Positions 1 through 5,833 of a stretch of 64,000 nt of DNA are shown in pieces. Both the position numbers and the translations under genes were made by a program. The stretch is from Escherichia coli (lineage in GTDB: Bacteria > Pseudomonadota > Gammaproteobacteria > Enterobacterales > Enterobacteriaceae), in assembly GCF_001677475.2 (NCBI RefSeq), contig NZ_CP015229.1; one strand, given 5' to 3'. Under the pieces are notes generated by a model. It was not told the DNA's origin. It did no database searches and saw only the letters and a list, made by a program, of their open reading frames with translations. Position 1 is the first letter of the stretch. Each line of letters starts with the position of its first letter.

Positions 1-1393
1 CAGCCAGTGCACGTATAGCGGCGACAAAACAGGCCATCGGCGCAGTGGTGATCCCGGCACCAATTTGCCCGACTCCCGCTTGTTTGTGGGCGATACCCGT
101 ATTGATGACCGGTAAAATGCCGCGATCGGTAACTTTACGCGCATCAATCCCTGCTGCGGTGGGGGCAAAATTGAGGGCAGGAAGTGTAAATGCGGGGTTA
201 CCGCCGAGGGTGATTGCCTGCATCCGACGGCTGTTATTGGTGGCATCGGCAGGTGTGCCTCCCACAAATTTAACGATTGCCGGAGATGACGCCATCGCGA
301 AGCCACCTACACCAGCGGTTTCGGTAATTGCGCTATCGCCCAAGTCAGCAGCGGCGTCGTCAACGCCAAATCCAGGGAAGAACAGACCTTCAACTGCATT
401 GGCGGGAGCCTGGAACCAGCGATCGCCAGTACCGGAAAGCCGAATACCAAAATTCACCCCGTTACGCGCCATCACCGTAACCATTGAACTGAACGGTACA
501 TTGGCGGCGGCATCCATCATTGCTTTACAGGCAGCCATCGACAGATTGAGGAAGAAGTGATCGTTACCGGTGATAAATGCTACGACGCGCTGGATATGTT
601 CCTGTGGAAGAGAGCGGGCCAGCAATGCCGGGATCAGACGCTTAATCAGCAAACCGGTAGCGGCAGCATTGCGGTTATGAACTTCATCCCCCATATGTAG
701 CGCCTGCGCCATTAATGGCTTGAGTTCCAGCTCGCCGTGTTGTGCGATTGCTGCTTTCATTGCCGGAGCCAGTTCATCGCGCATCCAGGCCAGACGATTG
801 AGAACTTCGTCGTTATTGGCGCCAAAACGGAGAACCTTACCCAGACCTTCATTGAAATTACTAAAAGTACGATGACCGTTGGTTTTATTTTCCACCACCC
901 ATAACGGCATTGACGGGCTGATGATGCCTGCCATTGGTCCAACCGCGTGATAATGATGACAAGGGGCAAGGTCGATTTCGCCTGCGTTTATCTGGTTTTC
1001 TGCGTCTTGCTGGCTGGTGGCCCAACCTTCGTACAGCATGGCACCAATAATCGCCCCTTTTACCGGACCACACATCTCTTCCCAGGTAATCGGCGGGCCA
1101 GAGTGCAAAATACGTTTTTGTTCAGCCATTGCTGGAATGGCCTCTTTAGCGAGCATGACATCCACCAGCACGGGCTGTGCTTCGAGATAACGTGTCATGG
1201 CGATTTGGTTGGCATTTTCTACCAGTGGATGACGTAGCAACGATGCCAGATCCAATCCAGCGTCAATATCGCCTTGTGCTGGTGGCTGCCAGTTGAGTGC
1301 AATTGCGCTTCCCCCGGCATGTTGAATATTGTCAGCAAAACTGTGTAGTCCCGCGTTCACGACCTTCAAAGACTGATTAAATAAGGTATTCAT
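1..1393 (-). CDS. Putative YlbE/YahG-like protein (DUF1116 suggested by synteny), C-terminus beyond window start
   Basis: Hand translation of the minus strand from ATG at 1393-1391 (MNTLFNQSLKVVNAGLHSF...) stays open to position 1. Start overlaps the upstream stop as ATGA. Family assignment rests on position downstream of an fdrA-like gene, not on recognised motifs. Confidence 0.5.
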   Translation of the reverse strand, partial: MNTLFNQSLKVVNAGLHSFADNIQHAGGSAIALNWQPPAQGDIDAGLDLASLLRHPLVENANQIAMTRYLEAQPVLVDVMLAKEAIPAMAEQKRILHSGPPITWEEMCGPVKGAIIGAMLYEGWATSQQDAENQINAGEIDLAPCHHYHAVGPMAGIISPSMPLWVVENKTNGHRTFSNFNEGLGKVLRFGANNDEVLNRLAWMRDELAPAMKAAIAQHGELELKPLMAQALHMGDEVHNRNAAATGLLIKRLIPALLARSLPQEHIQRVVAFITGNDHFFLNLSMAACKAMMDAAANVPFSSMVTVMARNGVNFGIRLSGTGDRWFQAPANAVEGLFFPGFGVDDAAADLGDSAITETAGVGGFAMASSPAIVKFVGGTPADATNNSRRMQAITLGGNPAFTLPALNFAPTAAGIDARKVTDRGILPVINTGIAHKQAGVGQIGAGITTAPMACFVAAIRALA

Positions 1394-2949
1394 GCGTTTA
1401 GCCCCTTTTTCTGCAACTGAGTCTGTGCAACGGTGCTGGCCCATAGCGCCGCCTGTGCATTGCTGCTGGCGATGATGACCCCTGCATTTTGTAGTGCGCT
1501 TATCTGCTGGCTGCGTATTTGCGGATCAGCTTCCGTTCCGCAAACGTGCGCAATCAGCAACGGTGCGTTATTCATGTCGATGTGTGAAAGTTGGTCCAGT
1601 AATTCGCTGGCAGGCGTCGTGGAAGCGCCATAACCAAGTACCAGGTCGAATAACACGACGGCAGTGTGTGAGTCGTTGAGTTCGTTGAGCAGACGTTGAT
1701 TGCGCAGAGTCGGATCGATCATTGGATGCGGTTTGCCACGGGTGAAATCATCGTCGCCCATATCGATCAACGTGTGATCTTCGCTTTGCCAGATATTTGC
1801 CAGAGCACGATTACCCGCAACTGGCGTATTGGAAGCTGCGCTGAATCCCTTTTGTTGGCAGATAAGTTGCGCTTCGTAGCAGAAGGTTCCTCCGGCGAAA
1901 ACACCGCGTATCGCCTGGCGATGGGCTGGCAGGCGCTGGCAGGCGTTTTGTAACATTGTGAGATCGTCGCAGGGTACATCGGTTTCGACAGCCGGAAATG
2001 GCTGAGCATTCAGTAACGCCACAGCGATGTCGGCGGCGCTGGCAAGTGTGGTGGCGGCAGTGATATTGGGACGTGCCAGATCATGCGGATTCGCCCCGAG
2101 GAAATTCACCACCACGGGTTTTCCACAAGCCTCGGCGCGCTCCAGAATAGTCCGGGCAACGATCGGTGAAGGCGGTTTTGAAATAAGCACAATCACGCGA
2201 GTTTCATCGTCTTGCGCCAGCGCATCTAAAGCGAAGAGCATCGATATTCCACTAATCTCTTCACTGAGATCATGTCCGCCTGTTCCCAACGCCTGAGAAA
2301 TACCCGCTCCGAGCTGGTCGATTCGGCAAGTCACTTCCTGTAGCCCGGTGCCTGACGCGCCAATAACACCAATCGCTCCACGTTTCACCACATTGGCGAA
2401 GCCTAACGGAATGCCGTTAACGATGGCGGTTCCACAGTCAGGTCCCATTACGATGCGCTGACGTTCTCGGGCAAGTGTTTTGATGGATTTTTCCTGCGCG
2501 ATACTGACGTTATCGCTGAACATCATCACGTTCATTCCGAGGTTTAACGCTTTAATTGCTTCGGCGGCGGCGTAGTCTCCCGGTACAGAAATGAGTGCCA
2601 GGTTGGCTTCGGGTTCGGCTTCCAGTGCCATTTCCAGGCTGACCTTTTCCGGTGTTTTAATGCCACTACCCGTTTCATCATCGGGTTTGCTGGTCAGACG
2701 TTGCTGGGCCAGTACCAGTGCTTCATTGCAAATATCTTCTTCACCCATGACTGCAATCACTAAATCATTGGGACTGGCGTTGATTTCGTTACCCAGACCC
2801 ACATCGCGCAATTGTTCGAGATTATTGGGTGTTCCCATGACGACCGAAGCCTGTTGAATACCGGGCAATTTGCTGATTTGCGCGGAAATCTGCATCAGAG
2901 AAACCGAGTCCTGATAAAGATTGCTGAGAACTTTATGTTTAACTTTCAT
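1390..2949 (-). CDS. FdrA-like protein (succinyl-CoA synthetase alpha-like CoA-binding fold)
   Basis: 519 aa ORF; N-terminal YQDSVSLMQIS motif typical of FdrA/YahF; glycine-rich GVIGASGTG segment. Confidence 0.8.
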   Translation of the reverse strand: MKVKHKVLSNLYQDSVSLMQISAQISKLPGIQQASVVMGTPNNLEQLRDVGLGNEINASPNDLVIAVMGEEDICNEALVLAQQRLTSKPDDETGSGIKTPEKVSLEMALEAEPEANLALISVPGDYAAAEAIKALNLGMNVMMFSDNVSIAQEKSIKTLARERQRIVMGPDCGTAIVNGIPLGFANVVKRGAIGVIGASGTGLQEVTCRIDQLGAGISQALGTGGHDLSEEISGISMLFALDALAQDDETRVIVLISKPPSPIVARTILERAEACGKPVVVNFLGANPHDLARPNITAATTLASAADIAVALLNAQPFPAVETDVPCDDLTMLQNACQRLPAHRQAIRGVFAGGTFCYEAQLICQQKGFSAASNTPVAGNRALANIWQSEDHTLIDMGDDDFTRGKPHPMIDPTLRNQRLLNELNDSHTAVVLFDLVLGYGASTTPASELLDQLSHIDMNNAPLLIAHVCGTEADPQIRSQQISALQNAGVIIASSNAQAALWASTVAQTQLQKKGLNA

Positions 2950-3043
2950 GCTGTTACGCCTGTTTCATTCCGCCCGATAGTAAAATTCGGGCAAAGCATC
3001 CCCGTGTAGCGCCATAAATGAGCTACAGGAGAAAAGGTTGAAA

Positions 3044-3904
3044 TCAATTCATGGTGTTCAGGGTTCGAAAGCCATGCAGCATTCCTGCAAGGCAATCCAC
3101 TCCTGACGTTGCGCCAAATTGCATGACCTGTTCTGCACAGGATGCGATTGTCATTGCCGATGCGCCCCCAACCAGTTGTGCGAGTAACTGGCAAATCGGT
3201 TCTGAAAAATGCCCCCGAAGCGCACGCTCCAGATAATGACGACTGATGTCAGTGGTGTTGTGCGCATGTTGATCAATTGCCTGCTGCAACCGGTATTGAT
3301 GAGCGGCAAGTGGTGCAGGTAGTTGCCATAACCAGAGCGCTGCCAGATAGCCCAACAAATAGTCATCTCCATCGGGAGTTAAGCCTTTGCCAAAGCCGAT
3401 CAGTTGTGGCACCTGGCGTTCCAGCGCATCTGGATGTTCCATAATCTCTAATCCCTGGTGCGTGAGACTATCCGGCAGGTGCAATGTGCTTTGAACGTTA
3501 TGCTCCAGACAAAATAAAAGCCGTTGCGATGCCATCGTTGGGTAGTGCTGGAAAACCAAAGGGAACGCCTCAAGTGTCAGCCTTCCTCCCACAAATGACG
3601 GCTGCCAGAGCGTTGCGTTATCGAGAGCCACACAAAAGCGAGGTGTCTGCAGCAAGCCTGGGGTTAACTGAACGGGATCGGAATGGGCAATCTCTCTTCG
3701 CCAGTCCCAACGCTTAGGCAGCCAGACTCTGGCAGCATCAGGGAGATTCAGATACGTTTGCGCACACAACAGGGTGATGAATGTTCCCGCTTCTGAATAC
3801 AGATTTACCGCATGTTTAAAAGCACTGTGCAGACGTAAATCTTGCGTTTCATTCCACGGGAAAAGATATCCCAACGACGATGCGCAAAGCGTAACCTGTA
3901 CCAT
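3044..3904 (-). CDS. Putative YlbF/YahE-like protein (DUF2877 suggested)
   Basis: 286 aa ORF with a GKGLTPDGDD motif, sitting immediately upstream of the fdrA-like gene as in the fdrA-ylbE-ylbF and yahEFG paralogue sets. Confidence 0.5.
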   Translation of the reverse strand: MVQVTLCASSLGYLFPWNETQDLRLHSAFKHAVNLYSEAGTFITLLCAQTYLNLPDAARVWLPKRWDWRREIAHSDPVQLTPGLLQTPRFCVALDNATLWQPSFVGGRLTLEAFPLVFQHYPTMASQRLLFCLEHNVQSTLHLPDSLTHQGLEIMEHPDALERQVPQLIGFGKGLTPDGDDYLLGYLAALWLWQLPAPLAAHQYRLQQAIDQHAHNTTDISRHYLERALRGHFSEPICQLLAQLVGGASAMTIASCAEQVMQFGATSGVDCLAGMLHGFRTLNTMN

Positions 3905-3909
3905 CGGTG

Positions 3910-4578
3910 TTAGCCTTCCAGGCCTGCAATAATGGCTTTGGAATCAGTAACCCAACCGAAAATGGCACCTTGTGCTTTGATCATCTCCAGGGCGTATTTC
4001 TGGAATTCCGGGAAATAGGAGCCAACGCAATCTTCCGGGATGATGCACTCATAACCACGATCATTCGCTTCGCGCACGGTGGTGGTCACACAGACTTCCG
4101 TGGTTACTCCGCAAACAATCAGCGTTTTGATGCCGTGGTTTTGCAAAATCAGATGTAAGTCGGTTTGATAAAAAGCGCCTTTGCCGGGTTTATCAATCAC
4201 CGGTTCGCCTGCGACCGGGTACAGTTCAGGAATGATGTCATGACCTGCTTCACCTCTGACCAGAATGCGCCCCATCGGGCCTGCTTCACCAATAAAGGTT
4301 TTACCGCCGCGCGTCAGTTTGGCTGGTGGGCAGTCGCTTAAGTCTGCACGATGGCCTTCACGGGTATGAATAACCATAATTCCTTTTTGACGTGCGGCTG
4401 CCAGCACCTCTGTACATGGAGCGATAGCCGTGCGTACCAGTGAAACATCATTGCCCAGTGCCTCACCGAAGCCCCCTGCTTCGACAAAGTCACGCTGCAT
4501 GTCGATCATGACCAGTGCAGTTGTGCGCGGATCAAAAGGTAATTCAAAGGGTTGAGCCTGAAAAATGGATTGCGTCAT
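3910..4578 (-). CDS. Isochorismatase-family cysteine hydrolase (amidohydrolase-like)
   Basis: 222 aa ORF; MIDMQRDF aspartate motif near the N-terminus and LIVCGVTTEVCV cysteine motif; 5 nt from the next gene. Confidence 0.75.
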   Translation of the reverse strand: MTQSIFQAQPFELPFDPRTTALVMIDMQRDFVEAGGFGEALGNDVSLVRTAIAPCTEVLAAARQKGIMVIHTREGHRADLSDCPPAKLTRGGKTFIGEAGPMGRILVRGEAGHDIIPELYPVAGEPVIDKPGKGAFYQTDLHLILQNHGIKTLIVCGVTTEVCVTTTVREANDRGYECIIPEDCVGSYFPEFQKYALEMIKAQGAIFGWVTDSKAIIAGLEG

Positions 4579-4835
4579 GGTAAATCTCCTGTCTGATGTT
4601 TAAACGATCCAGTTGTTCTGAGAACGAGTATTCAGGAGAAAAGCGGCACAAAACAGGAAAAAAGTTTGCCGCACAGCAACGAAATTTTTGCATTCAGCAG
4701 GCGGCGTGATGACGAATGTGAAGGGGGTCAAATCGTGGCATACAGCAACAAAATTTTTGATGCTGTATGGTTTTGAGTTTAAAAAAATCGTTGAAATTGT
4801 GTGAGCTTAAGCACCTGAGTTAGCTGCTATGGTGG

Positions 4836-5645
4836 TTATTTTTTAACACCATACTGCTTAAACCACTCCAGCATACGCTGCCAGCCATCTTTTGCAGATG
4901 CGGCATGATAGCTCGGGCGATAATCAGCGTTGAATGCATGCCCGGCGTCCGGGTACACGATAATCTCTGCTTTCGCATTAGCAGCCCGCAGCGCCTGGCG
5001 CATGGTTTCAACGCTCTCCTGCGGAATGCTGTTATCCTGACCACCATATAAGCCGAGAACCGGCGCGTTAAGATCGGTTGCGATATCAACAGGTTGTTTC
5101 GGTGAATTCAGCGACTTATCGCCTGTCAGTTTGCCGTACCATGCCACCGCCGCTTTCAGTTGCGGGTTATGCGCAGCATACAGCCAGGTGATACGTCCAC
5201 CCCAGCAGAATCCGGTGATCATTAAACGATGAACATCGCCGCCGTTGCGGGAAGCCCAACTGGCGACATGATCGAGATCGGCCAGCACCTGCGAGTCAGG
5301 CACTTTTGCTACCAGACCGCTAAGCAACGTGGGGATATCGGCAAAATCATTCGGATCGCCTTCGCGGAAGTAAAGTTCAGGTGCGATAGCCAGATATCCC
5401 TCCAGCGCCAGACGGCGACAAATGTCGCGGATATGTTCATGCACGCCAAAAATTTCCTGCACTACAATGACCACTGGCAGTGGGCCATCGCTTTGCTTTG
5501 GTCTGGCATGGTAAGCAGGCATGTTATCCCCTTGTGAGGGGATAGAGGTGAAGCCCGCCGCAATCGCGTCGTCCGGGGTCTGAACGATGGTCGAAGCGAG
5601 AGGCGATGCAGCAGGTGCAAATCCAGATTGTTGTGTTGTTGCCAT
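4836..5645 (-). CDS. ysgA: Dienelactone hydrolase-family protein
   Basis: ORF 4836-5711; start placed at internal MATTQQSGF (about 270 aa); position upstream of udp matches K-12. Confidence 0.8.
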   Translation of the reverse strand: MATTQQSGFAPAASPLASTIVQTPDDAIAAGFTSIPSQGDNMPAYHARPKQSDGPLPVVIVVQEIFGVHEHIRDICRRLALEGYLAIAPELYFREGDPNDFADIPTLLSGLVAKVPDSQVLADLDHVASWASRNGGDVHRLMITGFCWGGRITWLYAAHNPQLKAAVAWYGKLTGDKSLNSPKQPVDIATDLNAPVLGLYGGQDNSIPQESVETMRQALRAANAKAEIIVYPDAGHAFNADYRPSYHAASAKDGWQRMLEWFKQYGVKK

Positions 5646-5765
5646 GGTATTCTCCGTACCCTTATAAAAATGTTGCGCAATGTTAACTATAGTCAGCATG
5701 CAACAAATCACATTGCCTGAATCGGCTCATCTTTTATGCAGTCCTGCAGAATGAAGAGTGATTTA

Positions 5766-5833
5766 TGTGATTTGCATCACTTTTGGTGGGTAAATTTATG
5801 CAACGCATTTGCGTCATGGTGATGAGTATCACG
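5766..5833 (+). promoter_or_regulatory. udp promoter region with two CRP-like sites about 52 bp apart
   Basis: TGTGAtttgcaTCACt at 5766-5781 and GTGAtgagtaTCAC at 5818-5833, upstream of udp. Confidence 0.6.

What the first reader, a model, noticed from the sequence alone, without database searches (positions are those of the whole stretch)
4579..4835. Near-identical 21-bp direct repeat in the island's upstream control region
acagcaacgaaatttttgcat (4673-4693) and acagcaacaaaatttttgatg (4742-4762) differ at only three positions and lie 69 bp apart, 95-185 bp upstream of the first gene of the operon. The second copy is embedded in a 7-bp inverted repeat (tacagca-N13-tgctgta). These look like a pair of operator or activator sites.
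Basis: seen in the sequence. Interest (0 to 1): 0.4.

Follow-up and report, generated by a model that had tools for sequence, protein, structure and literature searches.

The report
LysR-type operator pair of an island operon
The repeat is real and is best read as two binding boxes for a LysR-family regulator (a relative of PunR) that switches on an accessory, still uncharacterised ureide-breakdown operon; it is a conserved but ordinary kind of bacterial promoter architecture.

Summary
The repeat is at the stated coordinates. ACAGCAAC[G/A]AAATTTTTG occurs at 4673-4690 and 4742-4759, matching at 17 of 18 positions, 69 bp apart. Copy 2 is the centre of a 31-bp near-perfect palindrome (4739-4769).

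Both features exceed shuffled controls. Both are conserved upstream of the orthologous 8-gene operon in Enterobacterales and Vibrionales. The promoter-proximal box is also conserved in Burkholderiales, Neisseriales and Xanthomonadales.

The family core is TCAAA-N3-TTTGA, a T-N11-A LysR-type box. The proximal copy lies a constant 56-58 bp upstream of a conserved -10 hexamer, which puts it near -65. A conserved second block near -43 follows it. This is the classic LysR recognition-site/activation-site layout.

The operon is always linked to one LysR-type gene, which lies outside the window in E. coli. Loci without that gene lack the box. This regulator is a paralogue of PunR, shares its recognition helix, and PunR's validated punC operator has the same core and the same 58-bp distance to a -10-like hexamer.

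Conserved CRP-like sites sit at fixed distances from the boxes. This is a new member of a known kind. Binding and the transcription start were not measured.

The parts
4739..4769 (-). Distal box D: a 31-bp near-perfect palindrome. In operon orientation it reads CATACAGCATCAAAA-A-TTTTGTTGCTGTATG. Centre at 4754, about -134 from the inferred start.
   Evidence: I3: 15-nt arms, 93% complementary. 27.1 bits with the family matrix, the best site in the whole 64-kb window. Conserved as CATCAA-N5-TTTGc in 20 Enterobacterales. One copy per island-bearing E. coli genome.
4673..4697 (-). Proximal box P, the putative recognition site. In operon orientation it reads CTGAATGCAAAAATTTCGTTGCTGT. Centre at 4685, about -65.
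   Evidence: 11.6 bits. TGCAAAAnnTTCGTTGCTG is conserved in Enterobacterales. The centre lies 56-58 bp from the last T of the -10 in about 30 lineages.
4653..4670 (-). Activation-site-like block GGCAAACTTTTTTCCTGT, centre about 4663 (about -43). It overlaps a weak -35 (cTGTTT).
   Evidence: The conserved block AAAT/C-nTTT-nCTGT in alignment A2 equals AAATCATTTCGCTGT in Silvimonas, Dyella, Amantichitinum and Caballeronia. 5.3 bits, the third-best matrix match in the intergenic region.
4627..4632 (-). Inferred sigma-70 -10 hexamer AATACT (TATACT in most other genera). The start is inferred near 4620.
   Evidence: Nearly invariant block in A2. Constant distance to P. The strict consensus scan found no full -35/-10 pair on this strand, as expected for an activator-dependent promoter. 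The start was not measured.
4717..4732 (-). CRP-like site 2: TTTGA-CCCCCT-TCACA (9 of 10 core positions), centre 4724.5, lying between D and P.
   Evidence: It is conserved 29.5-30.5 bp from the D centre across Enterobacterales. Binding is inferred only.
4800..4815 (-). CRP-like site 1: GGTGC-TTAAGC-TCACA (8 of 10 core positions), centre 4807.5, 53.5 bp upstream of D.
   Evidence: TCACA is invariant in A2. The same position (53.5-54.5 bp upstream of D) holds a perfect TGTGAGCTAGCTCACA in Shewanella.
4774..4793 (-). Possible weak third box D' (CAACGATTTTTTTAAACTCA), about 30 bp upstream of D.
   Evidence: I2: 75% complementary to P. Below 3 bits in the window. However, 9-15-bit sites lie 31-32 bp upstream of D in Citrobacter, Rahnella, Serratia, Budvicia and Limnobaculum.
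4586..4590 (-). Shine-Dalgarno sequence AGGAG of the first gene.
   Evidence: Conserved in A2.
3910..4578 (-). First gene of the operon: an isochorismatase-family cysteine hydrolase related to TrtA and BiuH.
1390..3904 (-). The next operon genes inside the window: AllH-like (3044-3904) and FdrA-like (1390-2949). The YlbE-like gene starts below 1390. The rest of the operon and the LysR gene lie beyond the window start.

Best explanation
The two repeat copies are DNA boxes for the LysR-type regulator (LTTR) encoded at the far end of the same accessory operon. That gene lies outside the window. The regulator is a paralogue of PunR and AllS. The shared core is the T-N11-A-type dyad TCAAA-N3-TTTGA.

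Proximal copy P (centre 4685) is the recognition site, at about -65. Together with the conserved block at about -43 it would hold a regulator tetramer that recruits sigma-70 RNA polymerase. The promoter has a good -10 (AATACT, 4632-4627) and almost no -35. This would activate the minus-strand operon: TrtA/BiuH-like hydrolase, AllH/FdrA/YlbE-like carbamoyltransferase, carbamate kinase, AH_C protein and NCS1 permease.

Distal copy D (centre 4754, about -134) is a much stronger, fully palindromic box. It most likely acts as a high-affinity anchor that helps occupy the weaker P box. This would work through regulator-regulator contacts across bent DNA, with CRP bound at 4717-4732 (and probably 4800-4815) providing the bend and catabolite control.

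Shown here: the sequences, their conservation, their fixed geometry, the linkage to the regulator gene, and the identity of the core with the PunR operator.

Inferred: which protein binds, activation rather than repression, the transcription start, CRP binding, and cooperation between D and P.
For: - The repeat and palindrome exceed chance.
- In alignment A2 of 20 Enterobacterales upstream regions, both boxes, the -43 block, the -10 hexamer and two TCACA elements are the conserved islands in otherwise diverged DNA with 53% mean column identity. The differences between the window and E. coli strain HCP5S3 avoid the arms of D, P, the -43 block and the -10.
- The E. coli 18-mer alone recovers sites at the same offsets in Serratia, Citrobacter, Edwardsiella, Buttiauxella, Budvicia and Crenobacter.
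- Other orders carry ATCAAAnnnTTTGAT-type boxes upstream of the orthologous operon.
- The core is about 9-fold enriched in the 300 bp upstream compared with the rest of the 20-kb loci: 3.42 versus 0.37 per kb.
- 44 of 47 loci with the linked LysR gene have a site of at least 10 bits. Only 2 of 33 loci without it do. Caballeronia sordidicola has the operon between flagellar genes, with no LysR gene and no box.
- In Neisseriales the single box lies in the divergent LysR-operon intergenic region.
- The P centre lies 56-58 bp from the last T of the -10 in about 30 lineages, and 67 bp in Neisseriales.
- The regulator's best NCBIfam match is PunR at 286 bits. It is 35% identical to K-12 PunR. The recognition helix VPSA[IV]SYT[IV][KR] is shared with PunR.
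- The published, ChIP-exo- and EMSA-validated PunR operator consensus is TsttwTCAAwAwwwTTGaaGGCA (PMC8376909).
- The K-12 punC operator shares the 12-nt core CAAAATTTTTGA with D. It also shares the same 58-bp distance to a -10-like hexamer.
- D-to-P spacings fall into classes of 69-70, 79-81 and 100-103 bp, differing by about one and three helical turns.
- CRP-like cores lie 29.5-30.5 bp from a box centre, with perfect TGTGA-N6-TCACA cores in three genera.
Against: - No binding, expression or start-site data exist for this locus. The -65 and -134 positions rest on a predicted -10.
- P alone scores only 11.6 bits, no better than five chance hits elsewhere in the window. In E. coli it deviates from T-N11-A at both end positions.
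- The matrix was built from upstream sites, so the enrichment figures are partly circular.
- The loci without LysR are mostly distant, GC-rich taxa, and the Fisher test ignores phylogeny.
- The regulator gene is not in the window and is not adjacent to the boxes in E. coli.
- Because the core equals PunR's, the chromosomal PunR could be the binder, or an additional one.
- The D-to-P spacing classes represent only a few independent events.
Confidence: 0.75

Rival explanations
1. The boxes are real protein sites, but a different factor occupies them. Candidates are the chromosomal PunR (same core) and, at P, CytR sandwiched between CRP sites. P reads AATGCAAA-N6-GTTGCTGT, which resembles inverted CytR octamers (GTTGCATT, recalled from memory).
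For: The core is identical to the validated punC operator, and the left flank CTGnnTGCAAAA is shared between P and that operator. CRP-like sites flank the boxes.
Against: - The boxes co-occur with the island regulator gene rather than with punR or cytR.
- They are present in Neisseriales, Burkholderiales and Xanthomonadales in the classic divergent or linked LTTR arrangement.
- The TGCAA/GTTGC flanks of P are absent from the Vibrionales P boxes (CATCAAAnnnTTTGAT).
- The flanks of D (GCATC...GATGC) differ from the PunR consensus flanks.
Confidence: 0.12
2. The distal palindrome acts as an RNA hairpin at the 3' end of the ysgA transcript (a terminator or stabiliser). The second copy would then be incidental.
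For: On the minus strand the palindrome folds into a long hairpin. The 151-nt region folds at -28.2 kcal/mol, with a z-score of -3.4. It lies about 70 nt after the ysgA stop codon.
Against: - No U tract follows the hairpin (CCACGAUUUGACC), and the terminator scan did not call it.
- The box is conserved upstream of the operon in genera where ysgA is not the neighbour.
- Conservation is at the sequence level in the loop-proximal core (TCAAA/TTTGA), as expected for a protein site.
- The whole intergenic region belongs to the island, not to ysgA.
- There is no Rfam match.
Confidence: 0.04
3. The repeat is a non-functional by-product of island insertion, such as an att or target-site duplication, a transposon end, or a chance AT-rich duplication.
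For: The region lies within about 270 bp of the island's right junction.
Against: - Both copies lie on the same side of the junction, 69 bp apart.
- They are conserved in many genera with different insertion sites.
- The shuffle tests exclude chance.
- No other copy occurs in L001 or in the window.
Confidence: 0.02

Closest known systems
PunR (YdhB) operator at the punC promoter of E. coli K-12 (PMC8376909)
   Same: - Same LTTR subfamily. PunR is the best NCBIfam hit and the recognition helix is shared.
- Same dyad core: TCAAwAwwwTTGa in the PunR consensus, and CAAAATTTTTGA identical over 12 nt with box D.
- Same 58-bp distance from box centre to a -10-like hexamer as box P.
- PunR is an activator, and its site lies upstream of its target promoter.
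   Different: - The regulator is a paralogue, not PunR: 35% identity, and 286 bits against the 345-bit cut-off.
- The flanks differ (GCATC/GATGC against sttw/aaGGCA).
- There are two boxes here, 69 bp apart, against the single reported punC box.
- The regulator gene is at the operon's end rather than divergent.
- The target is a catabolic operon, not a transporter.
Classic LysR-type promoter layout: recognition site near -65 with T-N11-A, activation site near -35 to -45 (general knowledge of the family)
   Same: A dyad T-N11-A family consensus. The recognition box lies at about -63 to -65 relative to a conserved -10. There is a second conserved block about 22 bp downstream, a weak -35, and a linked regulator gene that is divergent in Neisseriales.
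   Different: - There is an additional, stronger palindromic box about 70 to 100 bp further upstream, which is not part of the textbook layout.
- The E. coli P box deviates from T-N11-A at its ends.
- The regulator gene is usually co-directional, at the operon's end or directly upstream.
AllS-dependent control of the allantoin genes allDCE and allFGHK (PMC12535856)
   Same: AllS is the second-best family match for the regulator, at 213 bits. The target operons encode paralogous FdrA/YlbE/YlbF-type carbamoyltransferase subunits and a carbamate kinase.
   Different: The AllS recognition helix differs (KTTATISYRIK). No comparable box was seen in the allD-allF intergenic region: none of the matrix hits of at least 8 bits in L083 falls there.
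AtzR at atzDEF of Pseudomonas sp. ADP (from memory, not checked here)
   Same: An LTTR that activates a cyanuric acid, biuret and allophanate catabolic operon from a recognition-site plus activation-site arrangement. Functionally it is the nearest analogue for a BiuH/TrtA-like pathway.
   Different: No sequence relationship was tested. AtzR is divergently encoded and its promoter is sigma-54 dependent, whereas no sigma-54 element was seen here.

Membership tests
LysR-type (LTTR) regulated promoter | Dyad-symmetric T-N11-A box | tested here: met
   The family consensus across about 45 loci is TCAAA-N3-TTTGA, which is T-N11-A. In the window, D reads T-N11-T on the operon strand with one arm end deviating, and P reads G-N11-T.
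LysR-type (LTTR) regulated promoter | Recognition site centred near -65 (range -80 to -50) from the transcription start | tested here: inconclusive
   The P centre lies 58 bp upstream of the last T of the conserved -10 (56-58 bp in about 30 lineages). That places it near -65 if that T is at -7. The start itself was not measured.
LysR-type (LTTR) regulated promoter | Second, weaker activation site overlapping or abutting -35 | tested here: met
   A conserved block AAAT(C)ATTTCGCTGT / GCAAACTTTTTTCCTGT lies 22 bp downstream of P. It scores 5.3 bits.
LysR-type (LTTR) regulated promoter | Cognate LysR-family gene linked to the target operon | tested here: met
   A gene with HTH_1 and LysR_substrate domains lies at the operon's end in E. 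coli. It is linked in 47 of 80 loci and divergent in Neisseriales. It lies outside the 64-kb window.
LysR-type (LTTR) regulated promoter | Regulator binds the boxes and inducer changes the footprint | not testable with these tools
   This needs EMSA, DNase footprinting or ChIP.
PunR regulon (orthologous PunR operator) | Match to the PunR operator consensus TsttwTCAAwAwwwTTGaaGGCA | tested here: inconclusive
   The core TCAA-A-www-TTG matches, with 12 nt identical to the K-12 operator. The flanks do not match (GCATC/GATGC against sttw/aaGGCA).
PunR regulon (orthologous PunR operator) | Regulator is PunR itself | tested here: not met
   The linked regulator scores 286 bits against the equivalog cut-off of 345, and is 35% identical to PunR. 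It is a paralogue. Whether chromosomal PunR also binds was not tested.
CRP-dependent promoter | TGTGA-N6-TCACA site, conserved | tested here: met
   4717-4732 matches 9 of 10 core positions and 4800-4815 matches 8 of 10. TCACA is invariant or nearly so in 20 genera, and three genera have perfect cores.
CRP-dependent promoter | Site centred at a class I or class II position (-41.5, -61.5, -71.5, and so on) and cAMP-CRP dependence | tested here: inconclusive
   The inferred centres are -104.5 and -187.5. The spacing is fixed relative to the LTTR boxes (29.5-30.5 bp) rather than to the -10. Dependence on CRP is not testable here.
Intrinsic terminator (of ysgA) | GC-rich hairpin followed by a U tract | tested here: not met
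   The hairpin is possible but is AU-rich in its upper stem and has no U tract. The scan did not call it.
CytR/CRP nucleoprotein operator | Paired GTTGCATT-type octamers between tandem CRP sites, conserved with cytR | tested here: not met
   Only the enterobacterial P box resembles the octamers. The Vibrionales, Neisseriales and Burkholderiales boxes lack them. The CytR consensus itself is recalled from memory.
Known RNA family (Rfam) | Match at the gathering score | tested here: not met
   Only two sub-threshold hits, at 19.8 and 19.4 bits against gathering scores of 49 and 50.

The most novel reading that the evidence does not exclude
The two boxes and two CRP sites could form a helically phased, looped complex of LTTR tetramers and CRP. 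In it, a high-affinity remote palindrome would load a deliberately weak promoter-proximal box. Because the boxes share PunR's core, the island operon could also be wired into the host's adenine-sensing PunR circuit.

The controlled operon would then be an undescribed ATP-yielding route for triuret or biuret-type ureides, which are uric-acid oxidation products found in urine. It is carried by about a quarter of E. coli strains, including ExPEC lineages.
Probability: 0.15. Interest if true: 0.6.

Novelty: new member of a known kind. Interest (0 to 1): 0.35.

Why it matters
- The analysis assigns a concrete operator motif (GCATCAAA-N3-TTTGATGC), a promoter map and a candidate regulator to an accessory E. 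coli operon at the metE-ysgA island. The one paper found that mentions this island, which calls it GR 29, only speculates about its function.
- The operon occurs in 1499 of 5426 complete E. coli genomes and is widely conserved in Proteobacteria.
- With this map, a regulator-promoter reporter could be used to screen for the unknown inducer, such as triuret, biuret or related ureides, and so for the pathway's substrate.
- As a piece of regulatory biology it is a standard LysR design with one less usual feature: a strong remote second box with conserved phasing and fixed CRP partners.

Tried and rejected
- **Sigma-54 / NtrC promoter.** I read the minus strand for TGGCAC-N5-TTGC and GG-N10-GC and found no candidate (by eye).
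- **Sigma-70 consensus scan.** No full -35/-10 pair was found on the operon strand. The -10 was found only through conservation.
- **Other regulator boxes.** FNR (TTGAT-N4-ATCAA), PurR, ArgR, NAC (ATA-N9-TAT), AllR/IclR and RutR boxes were compared by eye from remembered consensus sequences. None fits both copies, and these were not pursued.
- **Terminator-like call at 4680-4668.** Rejected. It is a 5-pair stem with G-T pairs that overlaps the conserved P and activation-site block.
- **Rfam.** Nothing reached threshold.
- **Autoregulatory box at the regulator gene.** No box was found in the permease-LysR spacer of E. coli or upstream of the LysR gene in Vibrionales.
- **Regulon search.** A 37-nt D query found only the island locus in E. 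coli genomes. BLAST cannot see diverged 13-bp cores, so this does not exclude weak sites elsewhere.
- **AllS comparison.** No matrix hit fell in the allD-allF intergenic region.
- **Literature.** Searches for the operon found only context notes and no functional study.

Full report
**Setting**

The window is Escherichia DNA. Its 3800-5800 stretch is 96-97% identical to many E. coli chromosomes.

The finding's interval, 4579-4835, is the spacer between two minus-strand features. One is the stop codon of ysgA (4836). The other is the ATG (4578) of a 222-aa cysteine hydrolase gene (3910-4578).

That hydrolase gene opens an eight-gene minus-strand operon. It is annotated in E. coli strain HCP5S3 as follows:
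- cysteine hydrolase
- AllH-family protein
- FdrA
- YlbE-family protein
- carbamate kinase
- allophanate-hydrolase-related protein
- cytosine-type permease
- LysR-family regulator

The window begins inside the YlbE-like gene, so the last five genes, including the regulator, lie outside it.

The whole spacer belongs to an accessory island between metE and ysgA. It matches 1499 of 5426 complete E. coli genomes and nothing in the others. Alignment with K-12 puts the island's right junction at about 4846, inside the last codons of ysgA. One paper lists the island as 'GR 29 metE..ysgA' and only speculates on its function (PMC12928451).

Yes. The 18-mers at 4673-4690 and 4742-4759 match at 17 of 18 positions, with a 69-bp start-to-start spacing.

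The inverted repeat around copy 2 is larger than reported. It has 15-nt arms, 14 of 15 complementary, around one central base, which gives a 31-bp palindrome at 4739-4769.

In 2000 dinucleotide-preserving shuffles of the spacer, a 17/18 repeat never occurred and a 14/15 palindrome occurred once. The 18-mer has no other match with up to 3 mismatches in the 64-kb window, where 0.21 are expected. It has no other match in the 26-kb annotated E. coli locus either.

**Conservation**

I fetched 80 loci that encode relatives of the hydrolase from one genome per species. The operon is conserved in Enterobacterales, Vibrionales/Alteromonadales, Burkholderiales, Neisseriales and Xanthomonadales. Partial versions occur in mycobacteria, Chloroflexi and Alphaproteobacteria.

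The position of the LysR gene varies by lineage:
- at the operon's end in Enterobacterales and Burkholderiales
- directly upstream on the same strand in Vibrio, Photobacterium and Shewanella
- divergent in Crenobacter, Craterilacuibacter and Laribacter

An alignment of 20 enterobacterial upstream regions has 53% mean column identity. It shows discrete conserved blocks. In operon orientation they are:
1. TCACA
2. the distal box, CATCAA-N5-TTTGc
3. T(T/A)TGA-N6-TCACA
4. the proximal box, TGCAAAAnnTTCGTTGCTG
5. AAAT/C-nTTT-nCTGT
6. TA(T/A)ACT
7. AGGAG
8. ATG

The E. coli 18-mer alone already recovers sites at matching offsets in distant genera. In the other orders the same places carry ATCAAAnnnTTTGAT-type dyads. 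The family core is therefore TCAAA-N3-TTTGA, which is a T-N11-A box.

This core is about nine times denser in the 300 bp upstream of the operon than elsewhere in the 20-kb loci: 3.42 versus 0.37 per kb. I built a symmetrised 25-nt matrix from 36 seed sites; its consensus is GCATCAAAAATTTTGATGC. It scores as follows:
- box D: 27.1 bits, the best site in the whole window
- box P: 11.6 bits
- the block downstream of P: 5.3 bits

**Which protein?**

A site of at least 10 bits lies upstream of the operon in 44 of 47 loci with the linked LysR gene. The same holds for only 2 of 33 loci without it. The caveats are that the loci are not phylogenetically independent, the LysR-less loci are mostly distant GC-rich taxa, and the matrix was trained on upstream sites.

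A cleaner contrast exists within Caballeronia. Loci with the LysR gene carry TTCGAGAAATT(T/C)GAT plus the downstream block. C. sordidicola has the operon between flhF and flhA, with no regulator gene and no box.

The regulator has HTH_1 and LysR_substrate domains. Its best curated family is PunR (286 bits, below the 345-bit equivalog cut-off), followed by AllS at 213 bits. It is 35% identical to K-12 PunR.

In a 14-sequence alignment the recognition-helix segment VPSA[IV]SYT[IV][KR] is shared by all orthologues and by PunR. AllS does not share it.

PunR's operator was defined by footprinting, ChIP-exo, fluorescence polarisation and EMSA as TsttwTCAAwAwwwTTGaaGGCA (PMC8376909). The K-12 operator, ctgcctgCAAAATTTTTGAaaccag, shares a 12-nt core with box D. 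Its centre lies exactly 58 bp from the last T of a TACACT hexamer. Box P has the same distance to AATACT.

The simplest reading is that a PunR-family paralogue recognises a PunR-like core with its own flanks.

**Geometry and mechanism**

The centre of the promoter-proximal box lies 56-58 bp upstream of the last T of the conserved -10 in about 30 gamma- and betaproteobacterial lineages. It lies 67 bp upstream, one helical turn more, in the Neisseriales.

If that T is at -7, the start in the window is near 4620. The inferred positions then follow:

| Element | Inferred position |
|---|---|
| Box P | about -65 |
| Conserved downstream block | about -43 |
| Dyad at 4717-4732 | about -104.5 |
| Box D | about -134 |
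| Dyad at 4800-4815 | about -187.5 |

The -35 region is poor (cTGTTT), and the strict sigma-70 scan finds nothing on this strand. This fits an activator-dependent promoter. P plus the -43 block matches the textbook LysR recognition-site/activation-site arrangement.

D is the unusual part. It is a stronger, fully symmetric box well upstream. D-to-P distances fall into three classes: 69-70 bp (Escherichia, Citrobacter, Edwardsiella, some Serratia and Rahnella), 79-81 bp (Buttiauxella, Budvicia, Limnobaculum) and 100-103 bp (Vibrionales, Shewanella, Halomonas). The classes differ by about one and three helical turns, which suggests face-specific cooperation. They represent only a few independent events.

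The two TCACA blocks fit CRP sites: TTTGA-N6-TCACA matches 9 of 10 core positions and GGTGC-N6-TCACA matches 8 of 10. Across genera such sites keep 29.5-30.5 bp from a box centre, or 53.5-54.5 bp upstream of D. Shewanella, Thorsellia and Avibacterium have perfect cores.

I therefore propose that CRP bends the DNA and helps regulator molecules bound at D support occupancy of the weak P box. This step is inference.

Several genera carry a weak third box 31-32 bp upstream of D. The corresponding window sequence (4774-4793) resembles P in inverted orientation but scores below 3 bits.

**Alternatives**

- **RNA hairpin at the ysgA 3' end.** It is possible on energetic grounds. However, it lacks a U tract, the scan did not call it, and it cannot explain conservation where ysgA is absent.
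- **Insertion scar.** Conservation across insertion contexts excludes it.
- **CytR or other known boxes.** They fit only the enterobacterial P variant, or nothing at all.
- **Binding by chromosomal PunR.** This cannot be excluded and is the most interesting loose end.
- **Known RNA family.** No Rfam family matches.

No second full-length copy of D exists in any E. coli genome at BLAST sensitivity. No box lies in front of the regulator gene. The circuit therefore looks dedicated to this operon.

**What the operon may do (context, inferred)**

The hydrolase is closest to the solved triuret hydrolase TrtA (6XIX, 271 bits), then to biuret hydrolase BiuH (6XJM, 235 bits). It scores below the BiuH equivalog cut-off, at 277 against 370 bits.

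The remaining genes parallel oxamate carbamoyltransferase AllFGH and carbamate kinase AllK (PMC11326118 and PMC9843812). There is also an allophanate-hydrolase C-terminal-domain protein and an NCS1 permease. Co-location of biuH with allFGHK and codB has been noted in nitrifier genomes as a putative pathway (PMC12625717).

A ureide (triuret or biuret-like) catabolic route that yields carbamoyl phosphate and ATP is plausible but untested. Its substrate or an intermediate would be the regulator's likely inducer.

**Verdict**

This is a new member of a well-known kind, of modest general interest. It is practically useful for working out an uncharacterised accessory pathway.

Noticed in passing
window 4836-4850 (ysgA 3' end); L084 5355-5375: The island's right junction lies inside the last codons of ysgA. 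K-12 YsgA ends ...QYGGKKSL*, while island-bearing strains and the window end ...QYGVKK*. Homology to K-12 resumes at CACCATACTGCTTAAACC.
   Followed up: partly
window 1-4578 and L002 10001-18188: An eight-gene operon with no functional study found in the literature searched. It encodes a TrtA/BiuH-like hydrolase, AllH/FdrA/YlbE-like subunits, carbamate kinase, an AH_C-domain protein, an NCS1 permease and an LTTR. The hydrolase is unusually conserved, at 80-88% amino-acid identity across Enterobacterales, Vibrionales, Burkholderiales and Xanthomonadales.
   Followed up: partly
L001 1-4400: In some E. coli strains, such as HCP5S3, the metE-ysgA island also carries a ptsG-like PTS gene, a transketolase gene and a MurR/RpiR regulator gene beyond the LysR gene. 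In strain E69 (L002) the LysR gene is followed directly by metE.
   Followed up: no
L002 17215-17291: The spacer between the permease and LysR genes contains a hairpin followed by TTT (GGCTGAATCT-GGAG-AGATTCAGCC GCTTT). The regulator may therefore be transcribed partly independently of the operon. No LTTR box is present there.
   Followed up: partly
L004 (record titled Chryseobacterium sp. 18061): This locus and its upstream region align closely with Buttiauxella izardii. The contig is probably enterobacterial contamination or a mislabelled assembly.
   Followed up: no
window 4754 versus E. coli genomes: 1497 E. coli genomes differ from the 37-nt D query at a single base. In the one strain aligned, HCP5S3, that base lies in the degenerate N3 centre of box D: CAAAAAATTTG against CAAAAATTTTG in the window. 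In that same strain everything from P to the ATG is 100% identical, although the whole spacer is only about 94.6% identical to other E. coli genomes.
   Followed up: yes
L034 7700-20660 (Caballeronia sordidicola): The operon, without a regulator gene, is inserted between the flagellar genes flhF and flhA/flhB. It has a different upstream region with a consensus TATAAT.
   Followed up: partly
L057, L058, L068, L055 (Neisseriales): These loci have a single box in the divergent LysR-operon spacer. The box lies 67 bp rather than 57-58 bp from the -10-like hexamer, one helical turn further than in all other lineages.
   Followed up: no
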